From: Octopus vulgaris
Taxonomy: Eukaryota
Length of the DNA: 64,000 bases
Assembly: GCA_951406725.2 (NCBI GenBank)
Contig: OX597840.1
Span: 496,001 to 560,000, forward strand
Direction: 5' to 3'
Part shown: one piece after another, positions 12,067 to 63,274 of the stretch
How positions within the stretch are numbered: position 1 is the stretch's first letter
Layout: each line of letters starts with the position of its first letter
Notes under the pieces: generated by a model
The model's input: only the letters and a program-made list of their open reading frames with translations
What the model was told of the DNA's origin: nothing
The model's database searches: none
Position numbers and translations under genes: made by a program

Positions 12067-12300
12067 CTATTTTACTATTTTACTCTTTTACTCTTTTACT
12101 TGTTTCAGTCATTTGACTGCGGCCATGCTGGAGCACGGCCTTTTAGTCAAGTAACTCGACCCCGGGACTTATTCTTTGTAAGCCCAGTACTTATTCTATC
12201 GGTCTCTTTTGCCGAACCGCTAAGTGACGGGGACGTAAACACACCAGCTTCGGTTGTCAGGCAATGCTAGGGGGACACACAATTACACACAAACACATAC

Positions 12301-12331
<31 letters not shown>

Positions 12332-12498
12332 CATATATACGACAGGCTTCTTTCAGTTTCCGTCTACCAAATCCACTCACAAGGCTTTGGTCGGCCCGGG
12401 GCTATAGCAGAAGACACTTGCCCAAGGTGTCACGCAGTGGGACTGAACCCGAAACCATGTGGTTGGTAAGCAAGCTACTTACTACACAGCCACTCCTG
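12065..12498 (-). mobile_element. SINE family A (tRNA-like head, internal TA/TG microsatellite, CR1-like tail), full length
   Basis: A-box-like TGGCTGTGTAGT, B-box-like GGTTCAGTCC, tail CCAGCATGGCCGCAGTCAAATGACTGAAAC(AAGAGTA)n; at least 10 copies in the window. Confidence 0.9.
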
Positions 12499-12825
12499 TA
12501 ATATATATATTACACTTACAGAGCCAAATAGATATGGAAGAGTATTTCCCATTTATTATTGATTTTCATTACTTCTCTCCACTGATATGTTTGGGAAGGA
12601 AAAAAAAACATCCAGCAATCTACGTACATGGACACCCACTCACACATTCACACATACATATGGGCACTCCCGCATGTGTATGTGCTTCTGTTGTTATGTA
12701 GTGATTATATATCTATGTGTATATGTATATATATATACAGATATATTATATACGTTCAACCATCTATCTATATATGTGTCTGTATATATATATATATATG
12801 ATGTATCTACATATATTTGTATTTT

Positions 12826-15119: not shown

Positions 15120-15307
15120 CTCATATATATGTCTATATACATAAGTATACATATGCACACACACATATACATGCACAGTCACACACACACATACACACAC
15201 GCACACACACATATGTTCAATAATATATTTATTAGTAGATGTATATTTTTAGATATAAGCATCAACGCAATATAAGTTATTCTTGAACAAATATACGAAA
15301 CGACGAT

Positions 15308-15475
15308 GCTGGAGTGGCAGTGTGGTAAGTAGCTTGCTTACGAATCACATGGTTCCGGGTTCAATCCCACTGCGTGGCACCTTAGGCGACTGTCTTCTAC
15401 TATAGCCTCGGCCCGACCAAAGCCTTGTGAGTGAATTTGGTAGACAGAAACTGAAAGAAGACCGTCGTATATATG

Positions 15476-15519
<44 letters not shown>

Positions 15520-15737
15520 TGTGTGTACATATGGTTGTGTCAGTGTTTGTCCCTCCCAACATCGCTTGACAACCGATGCTGGTGTGTTTACGCCCCTGTA
15601 ACTTAGCAGTCCGACATAACAGAACGATAGAATAAGTACTATGCTTACAAAGAATAACTCCTGGGGTCGGTTTGCTCGACTAAAAGGCGGTGCTCCAGCA
15701 TGGCCACAGTCAAATTACTGAAACGAGTTAAAGAGTT
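15308..15737 (+). mobile_element. SINE family A, full length
   Basis: Collinear with the other family A copies. Confidence 0.9.
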
Positions 15738-19610: not shown

Positions 19611-20640
19611 GCTTAGGTATGTATGTGTGTGTGTGTGTTTATGTGTTGAGAGAGCGAGAGGGAGAGTGAGAAAGTCAGAGAAAGAGAAAGTCTGTGTGTG
19701 TGTGTGTGTGTGTGTATAAGGTGGCAAACTGGCAGAAACGACTGTTGATGCTCATAAAACATCGGGCGACCCAGGGCTAAAGTCGAAGAAGATACTTGCT
19801 CAAGATGCCTCGCAAGAAATACCTACAAGCGAGCTTTCATGCGCGTGTCTGTTTGTCTCGGAGTGCGCGAGGATGTATTTGTATGCATGCACGTAGCTGT
19901 GTACAAACCCATCATACACATACAGATCATTCGCTCGTTAAATACACAGACCCCGAAGTACCTAGGGTCCCCTTCTCAGCTGGTTTACGAGCATTTATGG
20001 TAATTAATTAGTTGCAGCATCTAGGCACTTGCTTAAGGACTTTCCGATACTAAACGACTATTTGACTGTGGCAGGAACCAGCATTTTAACTCGGTACACA
20101 GGAAAAAGATCAAATACTACAAAATATTCTGTATAGATTTTAAATATTATATATTTACATTACTTGGAGTTTCGCCAGAGCAGGTCTCTTCAGGTAACGT
20201 GAATTAACTTATATGTTTCTTCTTCCATATTTTTGATCTGTTATCTTTTACTTGTTTCAATCATTGCTAAGTTACGAGGCCGTAAACAACGCCAGCTGAC
20301 ATCGTCAAGCGATGCTGGGTGATAAACACACACGTACACACACACACACACACAAATCTACTAACACAATCTCACACATATATACACATGGACATGTAAA
20401 TGCAATGAGATTCAGTGCCGTTTCCCTTAACCAACCCCACTCTTTAATAACATAATTTATCATTGGCTATAATTCAATCATTATCTTTTTGTTATTGGTC
20501 ATTAAACAAAGGGGTGGCAGGTGATCAATAAATGAATACGCATGCGTGCGTGCGTCTCTATGTTTCTTTACTAGTCTAATGGTAATTAGCTTCTAAATTT
20601 TATAAATATAATTTACGAATTTGACGTATAAGTATATATG

Positions 20641-21128
20641 ATTCTTTATTAGCCACACAGGGCTGCACACAGACGGGACGAATTACAAGGTAGAGCTTTT
20701 CTTTTGGGGATAAAAAAGGGGGGTTGGTTTTCGATCAAGAGGGAACGTAAAAGGTAAGAAACAGGAAAGCAAAGGCCAAAAGAGGGGGGGATAGAATTAA
20801 AGGAAAAAGAAAAAATCGATCAATATGGATCGTTATCACAGAAATGTCAATATAAAGTGTAAAGGGGGCGACAGGTGAGGTTTATCTGTGGAAAGAAAAG
20901 CCTACGGAAAAGACCACGGTAACCTCGGTCAATGAAGTCACATGTTACATTATTTTTTTACAAATAAGTTATTCTCTGTATTAAATTTTTACCGTTCATA
21001 GGATTATACTCAATGTGGCTTCGTCATTCATACGTGCCATCCTTGTTACAGTCACCCATCTTTTTTTTAAACATTTACTAGACAAAACTTGCCTCACTAC
21101 TCTCACTTTCCTTTTCAAGTGATACTTA
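20641..21128 (-). mobile_element. 3' end of a Tx1/L1-like LINE (ORF2 C-terminus plus 3' UTR)
   Basis: Minus strand KYHLKRKVRVVRQVLSSKCLKKRWVTVTRMARMNDEATLSIIL*, then a pyrimidine-rich UTR ending in AATAAAGAAT. The clade call rests on resemblance to Tx1-type ORF2 C-termini. Confidence 0.6.
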
Positions 21129-21397
21129 GAAACTTTGAGAACATGAATCAGTTCCTTTCTCAGAAAAATGATTCTCCACGCAGAAAATTTCTAAATTCTT
21201 ATAATGTCAACAACACACGATTTTCGCTGGCAAGAGTTGTTTCTAAAATGGAGACGGAAATATGGATATTTTTCTTTGCTCCATCGGTAGAACGTTCGTC
21301 ATATGCATGGGAGATGTGGTTTCGCGTCCCATAGGTAGACTTCAAGATTTATTTCTCTCTAAAATAATTTTAAACTCAATATCTGAATGCTATCATT

Positions 21398-21626
21398 GGT
21401 GAGCTGGCAGAACTGTTAGCACGCCGGGCAAAATGCTGAGCGGTATTTCGTCTGCCGTTACGTTCTGAGTTCAAATTCCGCCGAGGTCGACTTTGCCTTT
21501 CATCCTTTCGGGGTCAATAAATGAAGTACCAATTACGCACTGGGGTCTTTGTAACCGACTTAATCCCTTTGTCTGTCTTTGTTTGTCCCCTCCATGTTTA
21601 GCCCCCTGTGGGCAGTAAAGAAATAT
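21398..21626 (+). mobile_element. SINE family B monomer, young (Tx1-like) tail; central region resembles the Nin/Deu SINE domain
   Basis: Head GAGCTGGCAGAA..GAGTTCAAATTCC, core GGTCGACTTTGCCTTTCATCCTTTCGGGGTC, tail TTAGCCCCCTGTGGGCAGTAAAGAAATA. Confidence 0.88.
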
Positions 21627-21791
21627 ATTTATGTCTTTCCTTCGAGTTTCATCGTTCCAAAGAGGAATTAATAATTTAGGAATTATGTAAGAAAACAAAA
21701 TCATTTCATCTAAGTTATTAATTATTCGAAACTCTTTGCATTTGGCTTGCGAGATTCTTGATGTGAACTCGTGAGTTGTATCTCGGGACGG

Positions 21792-21866: not shown

Positions 21867-22137
21867 AGGAAATGAAGAAAATGCTGACAAAATAATTTAA
21901 GTAAGGGAGAGTGTATTTAATTAGGTGAAAGTTCTTTTTACCGGTTGCGCATTTGTTATGCTTATTAAAAGATATTTTTAAAGAGAGATAGAGTTCCTTT
22001 CTGATAGGAACTCTATCTCTCTTAAAAAATATCTTTTAATAAGCATAACAAATGCGCAACCGGTAAAAGGAACTTTCACCTAATTAAATACACTCTCCCT
22101 TACTTAAATTATTTTGTCAGCATTTTCCTCATTTCCT
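21867..22137. repeat. Near-perfect 271-bp palindrome (about 135-bp arms)
   Basis: Arms are reverse complements with about 4 mismatches; centre near 22002; abuts (TA)n. Confidence 0.95.
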
Positions 22138-22663: not shown

Positions 22664-23083
22664 TCTTTTACTCTTTACTCTTTTACTTGTTTCAGTCATT
22701 TGACTGCGGCCATGCTGGAGCACCGCCTTTAATCGAGGAACTCGACCCCGGGACTTATTCTTTTTGTAAGCCCAGTACTTATTCTATCGGTCTCTTTTGC
22801 CGAACCGCTAAGTAATGGGGACATAAACACACTAGCATCGGTTGTCAAGCAATGCTAGGGGGACAAACACAGACACACAAACACACACACACACACGCAT
22901 ATATACATATATACATATATGCGACGGGCTTCTTTTCAGTTTCCGTCTACCAAATCTACTCACAAGGCTTTGGTCGGCCCGAGGCTATAGTAGAAGACAC
23001 TTGCCCAAGGTACCACGCAGTGGGACTGAACCCGGAACCATGTGGTTGGTAAACAATCTACTTGCCACACAGCCACTCCTGCG

Positions 23084-23085
<2 letters not shown>
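22661..23085 (-). mobile_element. SINE family A, full length, inserted in (TA)n
   Basis: Complete GGCGCAGGAGTGGC start and (AAGAGTA)n tail; TA runs on both sides. Confidence 0.92.
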
Positions 23086-25412: not shown

Positions 25413-25802
25413 ATACTCTTTACTCTTTTACTTGTTTCAGTCATTTGACTGCGGCCATGCTGGAGCACCGCCTTTAGTCGAGCAAATCAACCCCGGGACT
25501 TATTCTTTGTAAGCCCAGTACTTATACTATCGGTCTCTTTTGCCGAACCGCTAAGTGAAGGGGACGTAAACACACCAGCATCAGTTGTCAAGCAATGCTA
25601 GGGGAACAAACACACACAAACAAACACATACACTTATATATATATACATATATACGACAGGCTTCTTTTCAGTTTCCGTCTACCAAATCCACTCACAAGG
25701 CATTGGTCGGCCCGGGGCTATAGCAGAAGACACTTGCCCAAGATGCCACGCAGTGGGACTGAACCCGGAACCATGTGGCTGGTAAGCAAGCTACTTACCA
25801 CA
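25413..25802 (-). mobile_element. SINE family A, slightly 5'-truncated, flanked by a 92-bp direct repeat
   Basis: Flanks 25321-25412 and 25802-25893 match at 89/92. Confidence 0.9.
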
Positions 25803-29385: not shown

Positions 29386-30238
29386 TGCCCCACCTGCGCC
29401 AGCCTCGTTACCCACCCTGTCTCTGATGTAGCGGATGAAGTGGAGGTTGCCGTGGATAGACCTGGTCGGTACGGCGCATTTCTGCGCCTTGCCAATCAGC
29501 TTGTCCACGACAAGCGCCAACCGCTTCGCTAGCACCTTGGCCAAAATCTTCAACTCAGCATTGAGCAGAGTGATGGGCCTAAAGTTCCCTATCTCGTCCC
29601 GCTTGTTTGGGCCCTTTCTCAGCAAAGCCACCATTCCTCGACAAACAAAAGCAGGATTTCTCCCGTTTTGTTGCCAGTTGCAGTAGACGTTGGTCAAGAG
29701 GCCCGCAAACAAGTCTGGCATTGATGTGTAAAGCTTGCAGGGAAGACCGTCTAAACCCGGCGATCTACCTCTCGTGCAGCTTTTCATCGCTTCCTCTACT
29801 TCCTAGGCAGATATCGGCCTTTGGCAGCACTCCGCCTCGCTGGCCGAGAGTTGCAGTAGGCCGTCCAGGTACACACTGAAGTCTGTCCCGTTGTCTGTCC
29901 CACCGTTTGTCCCGAACAGTCGAGCAAAATGCTGCTGAAAGACCGCACATATCTGCTTCGGTTCGGAAACCTCGCGCCCATTCTGGTCTACCAAAGACCG
30001 ATTGGTTGCTTTGTTGCCGCGCTTCGCCTCCGCCACGCGGACCCATCGAGCGGCCTTAGTTCCCTCCCCGCTTACCGAAAGTGCCTTAGCTCTGACAACG
30101 CAGCCTTCGTGTTTGGCGTGAAAGTGTTGATCGAGGGCCAACTTGGCTGCCAACACGTCGGTTGCGATGGCTGCCACACGACACTCGTCTAGTTTTCTAA
30201 CTAAATGCCGCTCTCTTTCCTTTTGTTCTACAGCTAGA
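29386..30238 (-). mobile_element. Tx1/L1-clade LINE ORF2 fragment (linker and RT N-terminal domains)
   Basis: GCVVRAK..HFARLF..*EVGEAMKSCTRGRSPGLDGLP..NFRPITLLNAELKILAKVLAKRL..AQKCAVPTRSIHGNL; one in-frame stop; GC-rich relative to flanks. Confidence 0.9.
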
Positions 30239-30754
30239 TTTGCTGATCGAAAAGGAAAAGATGTAGCGTCTAAAAACGGTTACAATACCAGTGGTTGTAG
30301 GAGCACTTTGGATGATCAAAAAATGAAGTGAATGATCCCTTACATATCATCCATGCTGGAAGTGCAAAAGATAGTCTAAACTGGTATGTCACATGAGGAA
30401 GAGCAATGTCACAGTGAACTTTCTTGCCTTCTTTGCTCTTTATTTTCCTTGCTTCCATTTTTTCATTTTATCTTTGTTTCGTTTTTTTTTTCCTTTTCCT
30501 TTCTGTCTTTCTTCCTCTTCGTCTTCTATCACATGACTTTGTGAATGAAAAATCTGGTGCCTTTCTTTATTTTAATGGCCTAACAATGCATACAGTGAGT
30601 TTCTCTGCCCTAGGTGTTAGGAAGACGCTCAGCAAGAAATGGAAACACAATTGAAAGAGGATAATAATAACAATAATAAAGATAATAATAATAATAATAA
30701 CAACAACAACAACAACAGCAACAATAATAACAATAACAACAACAACAACACCAC

Positions 30755-32905: not shown

Positions 32906-33231
32906 ATTTACGTGTATGTGTATGAATGCGTATGTGTGTGTGTGTGTGTGTGTGTGTGAAGAAATAATCAACTGTTGAAGGTAAAATTATGCAAAGCTTA
33001 TCTTGCATGACTAATAGAAACACATGTAATAAATTCAAATTATTATTTGGTTTTGTCATTATTCTAATACTTAGAATAGACTCGCCCTGATATGCGCGAG
33101 CAACGGAACCGTTCTACACGCACTCGTAAAGTGTCCAAGTATTTCTCACTCGTCGAATGATGTCGAACACCTGCTGACCCGTGTAGGACAGACTCCGCTA
33201 TCGGTTGATACCATTGTTCTATATATATATA

Positions 33232-43259: not shown

Positions 43260-43659
43260 ATGTTTCAACATACGATTTCACATCAAAAATCTTGCAAAAC
43301 AAATATATAAACGTAATAATAATAATACTTTGTCACATAGGCAGATGACATGAAATTTGTATCGAAGTGAAGAGTCAAATATCCTGTCTCTAGCACATGC
43401 CATGTACATTACCTAATTGATACCGAAAGGTGAGGTAAATGTGATCTTGGAGTAATTTAAAGTCAGAACTTAAACCGCTGTATGTATATAATGCAAGACA
43501 ACTTGCCTCAGGCTTGAATAATTTTAGGAAATTCTAAAACGAAAGACAACCTGGAATCATGTGTCATTCAGTTGCTAATAATTACTTTAGAACTCCACGT
43601 GGTGTGGCGAGCAGAGATAAGGCGCCACCACGTCTAGTAATCGAATCTACGATCAAATA

Positions 43660-44435
43660 TATTTCTTTACTACCCACAAGGGGTTAAGCATAGAGGAGAC
43701 AAACAGGGACAAAGGGAAGTCGATTACATCGACCCCAGTGCGAAACGGGTACTTCATATATCGACCCCCGAAAGGATGAAAGGCAAAGTCGACCTCGGCG
43801 GAATTTGAACTCAGAACGTAACGACAGACGAAATACCTATTTCTTTACTACCCTCAAGGGGCTAAACACAGAGAGGACAAACAAGGACAGACAAAGGAAT
43901 TAAGTCGATTATATCGACCCCAGTGCGTAACTGGTACTTATTTAATCGACTCCGAAAGGATGAAAGGCAAAGTCGACCTCGGCGGAATTTGAACTCAGAA
44001 CGTAACGACGGACGAAATACCTATTTCTTTACTACCTACAAGGGGCTAAACACCGAGGGGACAAACAAGGACAGACAAAGGGATTAAGTCAATTCTATCG
44101 ACCCAGTGCGTAACTGGTACTTAATTTATCGACCCCGAAAGGATGAAAGGCAAAGTCAACCTCGGCGGAATTTGAACTCAGGACGTAACGACGGACGAAA
44201 TACCTATTTCTTTACTACCCACCAGGGGCTAAACACCGAGGGGACAAACAAGGACAGACAAAGGGATTAAGTCGATTATATCGACCCCAGTGCGTAACTG
44301 GTACTTTATTTATCGACTCCAAAAGGATGAAAGGCAAAGATGGCCTCGGCGGAATTTGAACTCAGAACGTAACGGTAGACGAAATACCGCTAAGCATTTC
44401 GCCCGGCGTGCTAACGTTTCTGCCAGCTCTCCGCC
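43660..44435 (-). mobile_element. SINE family B array: one head plus four tandem bodies, within a single ~14-bp TSD
   Basis: Units 43660-43837, 43838-44021, 44022-44204, 44205-44388; head 44389-44435; TCTACGATCA(A/T)ATA at 43646-43659 and 44437-44450. Confidence 0.92.
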
Positions 44436-44570
44436 CTCTACGATCATATAGTCTTGACTATAACTTACGCATGCACTTACTCAGAAAGAGATGCACGTTA
44501 ATATAAACACTCGTACATGCATAAATACGTCCATAGAAACCTTCCAGGTGTATTATATTTAGTAGCTCTA

Positions 44571-53059: not shown

Positions 53060-53239
53060 GTATTAACGGCAGCGTCAGCAAAAAATATCTGAGCTGGAAA
53101 ATGATGGAGAATAACATTGGTTGGTGTTGAAATAACAGCGGTGGAGTGATGGTGGTGGTGGTGGTGGTGATGGTGGTCGTGGTAGGAGGGAGTAGAGATG
53201 TGTGACGACTAAAGAATATTTAATATTTAAAGATATGAA

Positions 53240-53824
53240 GGCGGCGAGCTGGCAGAAACGTTAGCACGCCGGGCGAAATGCGTAGCCGTATTTCGTCTGC
53301 CGTTACGTTCTGAGTTCAAATTCCGCCGTGGTCGACTTTGCCTCTCATCCTTTCGGGGTCGATTAAATAAATACTAGTTACGCACTGGGGTCTATATAAT
53401 CGACTTAATCCCTTTGTCTGTCCTGGGTTGTCAACTCTGTGTTTAACCCCTTGTGGGTAATAAAGAAATAGGTATTTCGTCTGCCGTTACGTTCTGAGTT
53501 CAAATTCCGCCGAGGTCGACTTTGCCTCTCATCCTTTCGGAGTCGATAAATTAAGTACCAGTTACGCACTGGTATATATATATGTAATCGACTTAATCCG
53601 TTTGTCTGTCCTTGTTTGTCCACTCTGTGTTTGGCCCTTTGTGGGTAATAAAGAAATAGGTATTTCGTCTGTCTTTACGTTCTGAGTTCAAATTCCGTCG
53701 AGGTCGACTTTGCCTTTCATCCTTTCGGGATCGATAAATAACGTACCAGTTGCATACTGGGTTCGATCCAATCGACCGACGCCCTCACCAAAAATTTCGG
53801 GTTTTGTGCCTAGAGAAGAAAATT
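53240..53824 (+). mobile_element. SINE family B array: head + two young-tail bodies + one old-tail body
   Basis: Junctions GAAATA|GGTATTTC at 53470/53471 and 53658/53659; the third body ends in GTGCCTAGAGAAGAAAA. Confidence 0.9.
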
Positions 53825-53843
53825 ATATTTATAGATATGAAAG

Positions 53844-54452
53844 CTTGCTTAGCAGCATTTCGGCCGTCTTCACGTTCTGAATTCAAATGACGCCGAGGTC
53901 GGCTTTGTCTTTCTTCCTTTTCGGGGTCAATAAAATAAGTACGCGATGAGCAACGGATTGAATGTAATGGGGTTGACCCCTCCGCCAACATTCCTGACCT
54001 TGTGTCAAACTTTGAAAGTAATATTTATAGATGAGAAAACGGTGAGGTGGCAAAGTCTTTTGCACGCTGGATAAAATGCTTCGTCGCATTTCGTCCATCT
54101 CTACCATCTGGGTTCAAATTCCACCGATGTCGACTTCGTCTTTATTTCGTTACGGTATCTGGAAAAGAAGTATCAGCTTGGCGCTTAAGTCGATTTAATC
54201 CACTTAGTTCCTCATCAGAAATTTCTGGCCTTGTGCCAAAATTTGAAAGCTGTATTTCAGAGATATGAAGGCATCGAGCTGGCAGAATCTTAACACGCCG
54301 GACGAAATACCGTTAAGCATTTTGTCCGACTTTTTGGCCTTTCATCCTTTTCTGGGTTGATAAAAGAAGTGTATGTCTAGGACTGGGACTGATGCCATCG
54401 ACATACCGACGCCCACAAAATTAATGGTCTTGTGTAAAAGTATGAAGCCAAT
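53844..54452 (+). mobile_element. Three further diverged old-tail SINE B copies, head-to-tail, separated by an ~18-bp recurring spacer
   Basis: ATATTTA(A/T)AGATATGAA-like spacer at 53223, 53825, 54021 and 54252. Confidence 0.75.
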
Positions 54453-54458
54453 ATTCAT

Positions 54459-54610
54459 TTATTTTTTATTGCCCACAGGGGGCTAAACATAGAGGGGACA
54501 AACAAAGACAGACAAAGGGATTAAGTCGATTATATCGACCCCAGTGCGTAACTGGTACTTATTTAATCGACCCCAAAAGGATGAGAGGCAAAGTCGACCT
54601 CGGCGGAATT
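54459..54610 (-). mobile_element. SINE family B young-tail body, 5'-truncated
   Basis: GGGGCTAAACATAGAGGGGACAAAC..GTCGACCTCGGCGGAATT. Confidence 0.85.
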
Positions 54611-54618
54611 CCAACTTA

Positions 54619-55426
54619 GGATCCGGCGGGGAGGGGTGGTAAACCCCGCTGTACTCTTTCACCACAACTCTCTCTTACTCTTTCTTCCTTCTTTTGACAC
54701 AAAGCAGAGGAACCATGGTGTAACCCCTTATAGTGTGGTAAGCTTTCAGACCCTAATCTAGATTGCGAATCCTCTGTTTTCTAGGATGGTTCAGCTCTCC
54801 ACCCGTTAAAAGCCACTGTTTACGGAATGAGGATAACAACGTAGCTTTCATGCCCGTGCAACCGCCAGTCTATCGCGTGTGGTGGGTGGATCTTCAAGTT
54901 GCCACACGCATTCTTAGTAGCTTAGAGTAGGCTCGAATTAGAGATTATTCTTTGTGGCTAATGGCGTGAGTCCTGATTGGAAGAAGAAGAAGAAGAAGAA
55001 GAAGAAGAAGAAAAAGAAGAAGAAGAAGGAAGTGGAGGAGGAAGAAGGAGAGGATGAAGAAGTGGAAGAAGAAAATGAAGAGGAAGTAGAAGAAGAAGAA
55101 GAAGAAGAAGAAAAAGAAGAAGGAGGTGGAGGAGGAGGAGGAGAAAAAGAAGAGGAAGAAGAAGAAGAAGAGGAAGAAGTGGAGGAAGAAGAAGAGGAGG
55201 AAGAAGGAGGGGAGAATGAAGAAGTGGAAGAAGAAAATGAAGAGGAAGTAGAAGAAGAAGAAGAAGAAGAAGAAGAAGAAGAAGGAGGTGGAGGAGGAGG
55301 AGAAAAAGAAGAGGAAGAAGTAGAAGGGGAGGAGGAAGAAGAAGCAGATGAAGAGGTAAAAGAAGAAGAAGAAGAAGAAGAAGAAGAGGAGGAAGAAGAA
55401 GAAGAGGAGGAAGAAGAAGAAGAAGA
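54619..55426 (+). mobile_element. 5'-truncated SINE (module C + tail W) with ~445-bp GAA/GAG tail
   Basis: GCTGTACTCTTTCACCACAACT shared with family C; ends CCTGATTG(GAA)n. Confidence 0.8.
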
Positions 55427-59130: not shown

Positions 59131-59690
<560 letters not shown>

Positions 59691-60380: not shown

Positions 60381-61498
60381 ACAAGGAGGAAGTATAGCAA
60401 AACTGGAACTGAAACTAAGTTAGTAATATCCTCCAAGCTATCAACCCAAAAGGCAATAACATTTAGTCGAGAATTATCTGAAGATGGACTCAATGTGGAG
60501 TCTTCTTCCCAATCTGGTATTTACAGATCATCTATGAGAGAAGCTGTTAAACTAAAAAAGAAAATGAAGAAAAAGCTACATTTAGAAAACTGGTCATTGC
60601 TTTTTGATGGTAAACATTGTTTATCAAGTGCTAGTTATAAAGAATGAATAGAGGGAAGTTAAGTTAGAAGCAATCCAATTACCATAGGGAAAAGCCGATA
60701 CTGTTGTGAAAGGAATAACAGCTATTTTAGATGAATACAATTTATGGAACTGTGTAAAGATGATTGTCGCTGAGACAATGAGTGTGAACCCTGGGAAAAG
60801 AAATGATGTTGTCATTCAGTTGCAAAGACTGTTTGCTCAAAAGGGTTTGAAAGATCTGCAATTTATTGGTTCTCAGCATCATATCCTTGACAGAGTTCTT
60901 CGTGTTGTGATGGATAACAAACTTGGAGAAAAATGTCATCTCCCAATATTGAATATATCTTCATCCCAGAGCTTCTAACTAATTATGAGAAATTTCAGGC
61001 TAATTTCAACAATGGTAAAGAAAAGATTACTGAATCAACAGAATGGCGAGATGACATAAAATTTCTATATCATCTGACCAGTTTTACATTTCTTTGAAGA
61101 AATTGACAAATTTCCTACTGTAAAGTTTCAAAAAACTTAAGAAAGGCAAGATGGAATTCTCGAGCAATTCTAGCTCTTTTGGCATTTACTCTTCTACCAG
61201 GAAAAGTGATTTGCTTCTCAATGCTTGTCGATTCATCTCTAACAGCTGAGCAGGTTTTTGGTTTATTGAGAAAATGTTCAATGCACATGATTATCAGAAG
61301 TTATATGGTAGCCCGCAAATTCATAAAAAAAAAAGCATTGAGCTCTGTTAATAACTTTTGGAGTCGAGGACCATCAAAACTGGAAATTCCCAAAACAAAT
61401 CAGAGTGCAGAATGGGCAATCAATTGCCTTCAAGATTTTTATGATGCTTGTAAAAAGGAGAAACTTTAGCTTCGATATATTTTATCTAACGAAACATA

Positions 61499-61660
61499 GG
61501 CGCAGGAGTGGCTGTGTGGCAAGTAGCTTGCTAACCAGCCACATGATTCCGGGTTCAGTCCCCTGCGTGGCATCTTGGGCAAGTTTATTCTGCTATAGCT
61601 CCGGGCCGACCAAAGCCTTGTGAGTGGATTTGATAGACGGAAACTGAAAGAAGCCTGTCG

Positions 61661-61723
<63 letters not shown>

Positions 61724-61937
61724 TTGTGTGTCTGTGTTTGTCTCCCCAACATCGCTTGACAGCCGATGCTGGTGTGTTTACGTCCCCGTAACTTAGCGGT
61801 TCGGCAAAAAGAGACCGATAGAATAAGTAATGGGCTTACAAAGAATGAGTCCCGGGGTCGATTTGCTCTCGATTAAAAGCGGTGCTCCAGCATGGCCGCA
61901 GTCAAATAACTGAAACAAGTAAAAGAGTAAAGAGTAA
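61499..61937 (+). mobile_element. SINE family A, full length
   Basis: Complete head to (AAGAGTA)n tail. Confidence 0.92.
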
Positions 61938-62890: not shown

Positions 62891-63273
62891 CTTTTACTCT
62901 TTTACTTGTTTCAGTCATTTGACTGCAGCCATGCTGAAGCACAGCCTTTAGTCGAGCAAATCGACCCCGGGACTTATTCTTTGTAAGCCCAGTACTTATT
63001 CTATCGGTCTCTTTTGCCAAACTGCTAAGTGACGGGGACGTAAACACCAGCGTCGGTTGTCAAGCAATGCTAGGGGGACAAACACAAACATACACGCACA
63101 CATATATATACATATATACAACGGGCTTCTTTCAGTTTCCGTCAACCAAATCCACTCACAAGGCTTTGGTCGGCCCGAGGCTATAGTAGAAGACACTTGC
63201 CCAAGGTGTCACGCAGTGAGACTGAACCCGGAACCGTGTGGTTGGTAAGCAAGCTATTTACCATGCATCCACT

Positions 63274-63274
<1 letters not shown>
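62891..63274 (-). mobile_element. SINE family A, near full length
   Basis: Collinear with the other copies. Confidence 0.9.

What the first reader, a model, noticed from the sequence alone, without database searches (positions are those of the whole stretch)
20641..20690. Young SINE B tail matches the 3' end of the Tx1/L1-like LINE in the same window
Seen: the LINE end CCTTGTAATTCGTCCCGTCTGTGTGCAGCCCTGTGTGGCTAATAAAGAA aligns with the SINE B end CCTTGTTTGTCCCCTCTGTGTTTAGCCCCTTGTGGGTAATAAAGAA (about 39/46 columns plus a 3-nt gap, by hand). Older B copies have an unrelated tail. Established: SINEs borrow partner-LINE 3' ends, and many Tx1-clade elements have sequence-specific endonucleases targeting small-RNA genes or other repeats. 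Inference: a tail swap recruited Tx1 machinery, which could explain the fixed insertion site in the SINE head. Caveat: this LINE copy and some SINE monomers lie at non-SINE sites, so any specificity is not strict.
Basis: partly seen in the sequence, partly recalled or inferred. Interest (0 to 1): 0.75.

Follow-up and report, generated by a model that had tools for sequence, protein, structure and literature searches.

The report
Octopus SINE borrowing a LINE's tail
A short jumping DNA element of an octopus-like animal has swapped its tail for the end of a larger L1/Tx1-type jumping gene, a rarely reported pairing, and its copies often stack up at one fixed spot in their own head, though whether the larger element's cutting enzyme aims at that spot is still open.

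Summary
20642-20690 (-) is the 3' end of a 5'-truncated L1/Tx1-group LINE: an ORF2 C-terminus lies 357 nt upstream, one public ORF2 matches both it and the RT piece at 29.4-30.2 kb, and the piece is high-copy in two organisms' contigs. It matches all 8 young SINE tails (33-38/46 columns), not 6 old tails tested. A tail swap to an L1/Tx1-group partner is likely (~0.85), though the true partner may be a sibling family. Five of 8 young tails abut head position 49, the first base of a hairpin's 3' arm; this joint recurs in over 1,200 contigs per run. One array is bracketed by a 14-bp target duplication; another ends in an old-tail copy. Repeated insertion into the head with homology-guided joining fits best (~0.45); multimer read-through plus local duplication is a close rival. 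The decisive test, LINE ends enriched at the head site, could not be run: 0 of 1 in the window, no such joint among 15 of 412 shown. Tx1 versus L1 is unresolved. Known kind (SINE/LINE tail pairs; crocodilian SINEU/Tx1-Mar), new variant: rare L1-group tail plus headless self-nested arrays.

The parts
20642..20690 (-). LINE 3' terminus shared with the young SINE tail (49 nt, includes an AATAAA hexamer, no poly(A) or repeat tail)
   Evidence: contig depth drops at this end and the window's letters at five LINE-versus-SINE positions are the majority
20642..20995 (-). LINE 3' UTR
   Evidence: between the ORF2 stop and the end; contig depth above single-copy level in every bin
20996..21140 (-). ORF2 C-terminal remnant (codons at 21127-20999, stop 20998-20996); 5' truncation near 21140; no anchored target duplication found
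   Evidence: tblastn to P0002 residues 871-912, 58% over 43 aa, E 2.7e-7; depth falls to single-copy level after 21144
29386..30246 (-). ORF2 linker plus RT N-terminal fragment of the same LINE lineage, one in-frame stop, cut at both ends, not joined to the 20.6-kb piece
   Evidence: (61% over 289 aa to P0002)
33093..33218 (+). third small ORF2 fragment (region next to the cysteine-rich domain) of the same lineage
   Evidence: 51-58% over 43 aa to P0002, P0026, P0028
21395..21625 (+). young-tail SINE monomer at a non-SINE site, followed by TATTT
43660..44436 (-). array 1: one head plus four young-tail units, units 2-4 starting at head position 49 (44204, 44021, 43837)
44437..44450 (-). upstream copy of the 14-bp target-site duplication of array 1
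   Evidence: 1 mismatch, abuts the element; 3 of 20000 random pairs reach 14
43646..43659 (-). downstream copy of the 14-bp target-site duplication of array 1
44377..44404 (-). head hairpin (12-bp stem, 4-nt loop as RNA); the array junction is the first base of its 3' arm (44388)
   Evidence: (z -2.36 for the 72-nt head, 3 of 200 shuffles)
53240..53658 (+). array 2: one head plus two young-tail units
53659..53824 (+). last unit of array 2: old-tail SINE body starting at head position 49
   Evidence: 17-bp near-repeat at 53223-53239 and 53825-53841, ambiguous because a similar linker follows other old copies
54460..54619 (-). 5'-truncated young-tail copy, tail-to-tail with an old copy

Best explanation
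A tRNA-type SINE of an octopod had an older tail. One lineage replaced it with the last ~50 nt of an L1/Tx1-group LINE (this family or a close sibling), and since then that LINE's ORF2 protein has recognised and copied the SINE RNA (tail homology shown; partnership inferred, ~0.85). New copies are put in by target-primed reverse transcription with ~14-bp duplications (shown for one array). A favoured target is the SINE's own head, at the first base of the 3' arm of its long hairpin (junction shown; targeting inferred). Because the incoming RNA carries the same head sequence as the target, the cDNA end pairs with the upstream target DNA instead of adding a second head, so repeated rounds give head + unit + unit + ... 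+ original copy (inferred). The preference is loose, and may come from the endonuclease, from pairing of read-through RNA with the nicked head, or both; later unequal exchange may add units.
For: Tail homology at both 3' termini, absent from old tails. LINE identity of the end. 5 of 8 young tails at one exact head position; loose ends with SINE-tail consensus before that position in 1222 and 1569 contigs of two runs from two organisms, and tail-to-head joints in 7 and 6 contigs. Array 2 ends in an old-tail copy, as expected if young copies entered an older resident; joints from the young tail to position 21458, just past an old-type diagnostic base, in 9 and 11 contigs point the same way, though the letters between are not known. 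Units within arrays differ by 7-12%, near the 9-14% between arrays, so they are not recent duplicates. A 14-bp duplication brackets array 1. In run X23, 40-44 reads show tail + 13 nt of the head site + 5'-truncated tail, the duplication-sandwich pattern that Kojima reports for tandem SINEU-3, but that run's origin is doubtful. Precedent: Tx1-Mar and SINEU share a target in another transposon.
Against: The only LINE end in the window is not at a head site (0 of 1), and no LINE-end-to-head joint or loose end was among the rows shown (15 of 412 joints; 18 of 1398 loose-end rows). No array has a duplicated head (0 of 5 junctions), so homology-guided joining must have happened every time. Units of one array are somewhat closer to each other than chance (0.098 vs 0.110, 17 of 420 permutations; among array units alone 2 of 15, not significant), which suits duplication or a shared source. 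No clear age gradient within array 1 (8-10 substitutions in every unit). The head of array 2 is young-like (1 of 40 from the array 1 head) though its last unit is old-type. LINE and SINE tails are only ~85% alike and neither folds better than shuffles, unlike textbook stringent tails.
Confidence: 0.45

Rival explanations
1. Tail swap is real, but the fixed junction arose once or a few times and was then copied: RNA polymerase III reads through headless units from the single head, multimeric RNAs are retrotransposed whole, and unequal exchange between units expands or trims arrays locally. No target preference is needed.
For: 6 of 8 young units and the majority sequence lack a TTTT run, so read-through is possible. 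The target duplication brackets the whole of array 1. All 5 junctions are identical and no head is duplicated. Units within arrays share variants (18 informative columns; 17 of 420 permutations). Multimeric SINEs and SINE-derived satellites are known.
Against: Array 2 ends in an old tail, so it could not be primed through the young tail. First units of the two arrays are no closer to each other (11.5%) than to others. Units are 7-12% apart. Some founding event must still explain the site.
Confidence: 0.3
2. Concatemers form within one insertion: SINE RNAs cut at the hairpin loop start at position 49; the reverse transcriptase runs off such a 5' end and jumps to the 3' end of another SINE RNA, several times, ending on a full-length template.
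For: The junction is exactly the loop/3'-arm boundary of an RNA hairpin that is stronger as RNA than as DNA in the young copy. One duplication around the whole array and shared variants within arrays fit a single event. End-to-end template jumping is cited for R2 in PMC4494074.
Against: Needs very frequent jumping (5 of 8 tails). Array 2 would have to start on an old-tail RNA. No stand-alone copy truncated at position 49 was seen in the window (0 of the copies).
Confidence: 0.12
3. The tail match is convergence or chance (pyrimidine/TG-rich sequence plus a polyadenylation hexamer), or the LINE picked up a SINE tail; the SINE's partner is another LINE.
For: Part of the match is AATAAA; a different SINE family in the window has a weakly similar TG-rich stretch (E 0.04-0.5); identity is only ~85%.
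Against: Composition-preserving shuffles do not reach the scores; the match is terminal in both elements; the SINE body is constant while its tail exists in two forms, which places the swap in the SINE.
Confidence: 0.07

Closest known systems
SINE/LINE pairs with a shared 3' end, L1-clade cases: maize ZmSINE2 and ZmSINE3 with LINE1-1_ZM, Chlamydomonas SINEX-3_CR with L1-1_CR (Ohshima 2013, PMC3747384; passages and table)
   Same: tRNA-type SINE sharing about 50 terminal nucleotides with an L1-group LINE.
   Different: That survey lists only 3 L1-tailed SINEs among 58 pairs, in plants and a green alga; this one is in an animal, has no poly(A) or simple-repeat end, and showed no significant stem-loop.
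Crocodilian SINEU-1/2/3 with Tx1-Mar LINEs (Kojima 2015, PMC4494074; introduction and parts 2-4 of 5)
   Same: SINE moved by a Tx1-type LINE, preferring a site in another repeat with 13-90% strictness; tandem copies from sequential insertion.
   Different: SINEU heads are snRNA-derived, end in poly(A), share no detected tail with Tx1, target a Mariner element, and tandem copies sandwich a duplication; there LINE enrichment at the site was shown. Here the tail is shared, the site is the SINE's own head, heads are not duplicated, and LINE enrichment is untested.
Tx1L of Xenopus, Keno, Kibi, Koshi (as described in PMC4494074)
   Same: L1-group ORF2 architecture in relatives (endonuclease, RT, zf-RVT).
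   Different: Membership of Tx1 proper and any target sequence of this family are not established.
Tail exchange in SINE superfamilies, e.g. MetaSINEs (Nishihara 2016, PMC4824008; section 9 and passages)
   Same: Conserved tRNA head and central domain with exchangeable LINE-derived tails.
   Different: Partners named there are L2 and CR1; superfamily of this SINE was not tested (its central domain resembles the Meta domain only by recall; papers name octopus OR1 or OR2 as CORE-SINEs).
SINE multimers (Dip, B2) and SINE-derived satellites of squamates (PMC8466645, PMC10702118; passages)
   Same: Head-to-tail tandem SINE units.
   Different: Dip and B2 multimers are full-length units thought to arise in tails or as dimers; here units lack exactly the first 48 nt and recur at one head position across loci and two organisms.

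Membership tests
L1 group non-LTR retrotransposon (L1 plus Tx1) | RT domain closest to L1 ORF2p among known RTs | tested here: met
   Pfam RVT_1 weak hit on the fragment; full-length relative P0029 matches human L1 ORF2p at E 9e-69 against 5e-16 for R2; tree joins P0001, P0002, P0027 with P0029's group, 100/99
L1 group non-LTR retrotransposon (L1 plus Tx1) | N-terminal APE-type endonuclease and C-terminal zf-RVT in ORF2 | tested here: inconclusive
   Present in ~42-44% relatives (PF03372, PF13966); P0002 has zf-RVT but lacks the N-terminus; no endonuclease region was found in the window
L1 group non-LTR retrotransposon (L1 plus Tx1) | The 20.6-kb end is the LINE's own 3' terminus | tested here: met
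   ORF2 C-terminus 357 nt upstream on the same strand; high contig depth through 20638-21144 in two runs
Tx1 clade | RT phylogeny with named Tx1 elements | not testable with these tools
   No named Tx1 protein was returned; the tree has no named reference
Tx1 clade | Target-sequence preference of LINE copies | tested here: inconclusive
   0 of 1 in the window; no LINE-to-head joint in 15 of 412 rows, tables truncated and incompletely counted
tRNA-derived SINE (SINE2) | tRNA-like head with A and B boxes | tested here: inconclusive
   Box-like motifs seen by eye in the alignment; ARAGORN 0 genes and Rfam no tRNA hit
tRNA-derived SINE (SINE2) | Dispersed short repeat with target-site duplication | tested here: met
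   Many dispersed copies, very high contig depth, 14-bp duplication at array 1; none anchored at the 2 monomers tested
Stringent-type SINE/LINE pair | Shared 3'-terminal sequence | tested here: met
Stringent-type SINE/LINE pair | Conserved stem-loop in the shared tail | tested here: not met
   LINE end z 0.19; three SINE tails z -0.32 to -0.92, with differing folds; single-sequence folding only
Stringent-type SINE/LINE pair | Mobilisation of the SINE by the LINE protein, dependent on the tail | not testable with these tools
   needs a retrotransposition assay
MetaSINE or CORE-SINE superfamily | Central domain aligned to the superfamily consensus | not testable with these tools
   Consensus letters are in figures not held; 2 of 3 supplements searched gave no hit

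The most novel reading that the evidence does not exclude
The SINE guides itself: RNA read through from a nested unit ends a few bases into the next head, and that end pairs with the nicked strand of any other SINE head, priming reverse transcription by the borrowed L1/Tx1 protein. Each insertion then makes a new template with the same self-targeting end. The SINE, but not the LINE, would be enriched at head position 49, and the family would use its own very many copies as safe landing sites. Hints: both intact non-head ends are followed by TATTT, the head site has TATTT two bases in, TATTT is a reported polymerase III terminator of other SINEs (PMC8466645), and in array 1 the downstream duplication copy has TATTT where the upstream copy differs.
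Probability: 0.2. Interest if true: 0.75.

Novelty: new variant of a known kind. Interest (0 to 1): 0.5.

Why it matters
SINEs are about 12% of the Octopus vulgaris genome and most families are unclassified (PMC13282606); naming a partner LINE for a major young family explains how it spread. SINEs with an L1-group tail were reported as rare (3 of 58 pairs, none in animals in that 2013 table), so an animal case gives a handle on sequence-specific RNA recognition in the L1/Tx1 group. If head-site insertion is confirmed, it is a SINE that targets itself, with a simple genome-wide test to separate endonuclease preference from RNA-primed targeting. It does not imply a new class of element or a host function.

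Tried and rejected
No whole genome is held for the window, so flank tabulation could not be done. A degenerate tail pattern found 0 loci in metagenome, prokaryote-genome and viral contigs. A scan of metagenome contigs with P0026 returned 80 loci at 23-49% identity, none with DNA like the LINE 3' piece or the SINE. The two raw-read runs laid only 9 and 180 of 12.9 million reads each and none on 20833-21378, so they give no LINE flanks. No RNA holder listed. A search for chance open frames across LINE-end junctions gave 0 hits among 1.84 billion proteins. Folding gave no significant tail stem-loop and no stable hairpin at the tail-head junction itself. An age gradient within array 1 suggested came from a misaligned deletion and vanished on pairwise alignment; rejected. 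Other AATAAAGAA/AGTAAAGAA hits (5 sites) are not LINE or SINE ends. The protein atlas gave only unnamed RT clusters. Four look-ups of earlier scan findings returned nothing. Ten paper searches listed no paper describing this pair or these arrays; Repbase, Dfam, SINEBase, the O. vulgaris repeat library and Ohshima and Okada 1994 could not be consulted, so a prior database entry is possible.

Full report
Setting. The window is AT-rich, microsatellite-rich animal DNA without tRNA genes. No genome is held for it. The only named close relative of its LINE protein is from Argonauta hians (68% to P0002; 67% over 112 aa to the window's fragment), which points to an octopod; that it is Octopus is my inference from this and from recalled repeat content, not the result of a call.

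The observation. The stated string lies at 20642-20690 (-). It matches all 8 young-tail SINE units found in the window at 33-38 of 46 columns with one 3-nt gap, and their majority at 38. Scores of 25-45 stand against shuffled means near 15; 6 of 8 tails were reached by 0 of 2000 shuffles and 2 of 8 by 3 of 2000. The match is terminal in both elements. Six old-type tails score 12-16; three further old or cut copies (9091, 38274, 41836) were not scored. Old copies are more diverged from each other than young ones (heads 12-17 of 40 apart, against 1-5 of 40), so 'old' is justified. About 49 of the roughly 62 young-specific tail bases are shared; the bases upstream differ.

Is the end a LINE end? 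Yes. On the same strand, 21127-20999 encodes an ORF2-like C-terminus. P0002, the best relative of the RT fragment among 11 hits, matches both the RT piece (61% over 289 aa) and this C-terminus (58% over 43 aa, E 2.7e-7), plus a third piece at 33093-33218. In contigs of two public runs from two organisms, summed depth is 2,200 to 3 million in every bin from 20638 to 21144 and 22-64 in the outer neighbouring bins (one intermediate bin at 20599-20637), so this is a high-copy repeat cut near 21140 (depth is not copy number). At five positions where LINE and SINE tails differ or vary, other letters are under 1% of the depth, so the LINE-type end is a family of its own; at 20680 over 99% differ from the window, which removes one mismatch to the SINE (40 of 46 by hand). 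No listed contig spans UTR and end together. The RT piece and the end are therefore one lineage; whether one family is not shown. O. vulgaris has 80 L1-Tx1 consensus sequences (supplement of PMC13282606), so the real partner may be a sibling with a closer tail. A full-length relative is nearest to human L1 ORF2p among solved structures (E 9e-69; R2 5e-16) and sits in a supported group with the window's fragment (25 of 138 proteins used). Tx1 versus L1 could not be decided.

The head junction. Five of 8 young tails are followed at once by head position 49; the other three are followed by TATTT (2) or AT-rich sequence (1). Array 1 is one head plus four young units, bracketed by a 14-bp duplication with one mismatch that abuts both ends (3 of 20000 random pairs reach this). 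Array 2 is one head, two young units and an old-tail unit; a 17-bp near-repeat brackets it, but similar linkers follow other old copies nearby. No head is duplicated at any of the 5 junctions. Position 49 is the first base of the 3' arm of a 12-bp RNA hairpin in the head. The junction is not local: loose ends before this position number 1222 and 1569 contigs in the two runs, with a SINE-type tail as consensus (agreement 0.61 and 0.58), and tail-to-head joints appear in 7 and 6 contigs. Joints from the young tail to 21458 (9 and 11 contigs) begin just after a base that marks old-type bodies, which suggests young tails in front of old bodies elsewhere too; the letters between are not known.

The untested step. 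The single LINE end here is followed by unrelated sequence. In one search no LINE-to-head joint was among 15 rows shown of 412, and no loose-end row at the LINE end was shown for the contig runs (18 of 1398 rows shown; the tool warns that counting was incomplete). LINE-end depth is roughly a fifth to an eighth of young-tail depth, so equal enrichment could be hidden. The result is inconclusive, leaning slightly against. The raw-read runs were unusable (9 and 180 reads laid). In one of them, X23, 40-44 reads show a tail, 13 nt of the head site and a 5'-truncated tail in tandem, and 14 reads show a tail, about 20 other bases and a truncated tail; these resemble duplication-sandwiched tandem insertions, but an internal deletion fits as well and the run's relation to this genome is unexplained.

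How the arrays most likely form. Sequential target-primed insertion at the head with homology-guided joining (0.45) explains the fixed site, the outer duplication, the old last unit and the 7-12% distance between neighbours. Against it: no duplicated head, slightly closer units within arrays (0.098 vs 0.110; 17 of 420 permutations; 2 of 15 among array units alone), no age gradient in array 1, and a young-like head on array 2. Copying of read-through multimers with local duplication (0.3) explains those points, and 6 of 8 young units lack a TTTT run, but it fits array 2 poorly. Template jumping from RNAs cut at the loop (0.12) fits the hairpin position but needs a high rate. These processes can act together. 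Chance or reversed direction for the tail match is unlikely (0.07). Shown: homology, LINE identity, junction, one duplication. Inferred: partnership, insertion order, joining mechanism, any endonuclease preference.

Comparison with what is known. Tail sharing and tail exchange are established (PMC4824008, section 9 and passages). L1-clade tails are rare: 3 SINEs among 58 pairs, from maize, sorghum and Chlamydomonas (PMC3747384, passages and table). A SINE riding a target-preferring Tx1 is known: SINEU-3 is flanked by Mariner-N4 in 313 of 347 copies, Tx1-Mar shares the target, and tandem copies sandwich a duplication (PMC4494074, introduction and parts 2-4 of 5). Multimers of full-length SINEs and SINE-derived satellites are known (PMC8466645, PMC10702118, passages). 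I also saw passages of PMC4758252, PMC8967140 and PMC11203168 and part 1 of 3 plus passages of PMC13282606; none of these passages describes this pair.

Verdict. Real, and more than a local accident. It works like SINEU/Tx1-Mar and like stringent SINE/LINE pairs, without meeting all tests of either: no tail stem-loop, Tx1 membership and LINE targeting unproven. New variant of a known kind; interest 0.5. The boldest reading not excluded, RNA-primed self-targeting of SINE heads, has probability about 0.2 and would merit 0.75.

Noticed in passing
window 54301-54328: An old SINE copy has the loop of the head hairpin inverted between its arms, a sign that the head palindrome is recombinogenic in DNA.
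   Followed up: partly
window 53842-54450: Three old-tail SINE copies lie head to tail, joined by similar AT-rich linkers, directly after array 2: an older clustering habit with a different junction.
   Followed up: partly
window 21626-21630, 43655-43659 and head position 51-55: AATAAA followed about 6 nt later by TATTT recalls the polyadenylation signal plus terminator layout of mammalian T+ SINEs (PMC8466645); TATTT occurs at 0.4% of window positions; noticed after the fact.
   Followed up: partly
window 33093-33218: Third small ORF2 fragment of the same LINE lineage.
   Followed up: partly
window 21868-22136: A long near-perfect inverted repeat of about 270 bp, possibly a small fold-back DNA element.
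   Followed up: no
window 12101-12499, 15295-15735, 22688-23085, 25429-25799, 59254-59633, 61489-61917, 62907-63274 and others: A second abundant SINE-like family with an internal microsatellite, 7-9 overlapping self-hits per copy.
   Followed up: no
runs X22 and X23: Listed under the same species label as the best holders, yet only 9 and 180 of 12.9 million reads laid; X23 shows two short tandem units built from the young SINE tail. Unexplained.
   Followed up: partly
proteins P0026, P0028: Metagenome-derived proteins 81-85% identical to P0002, probably host DNA carried in environmental samples; their contigs were not recovered.
   Followed up: partly
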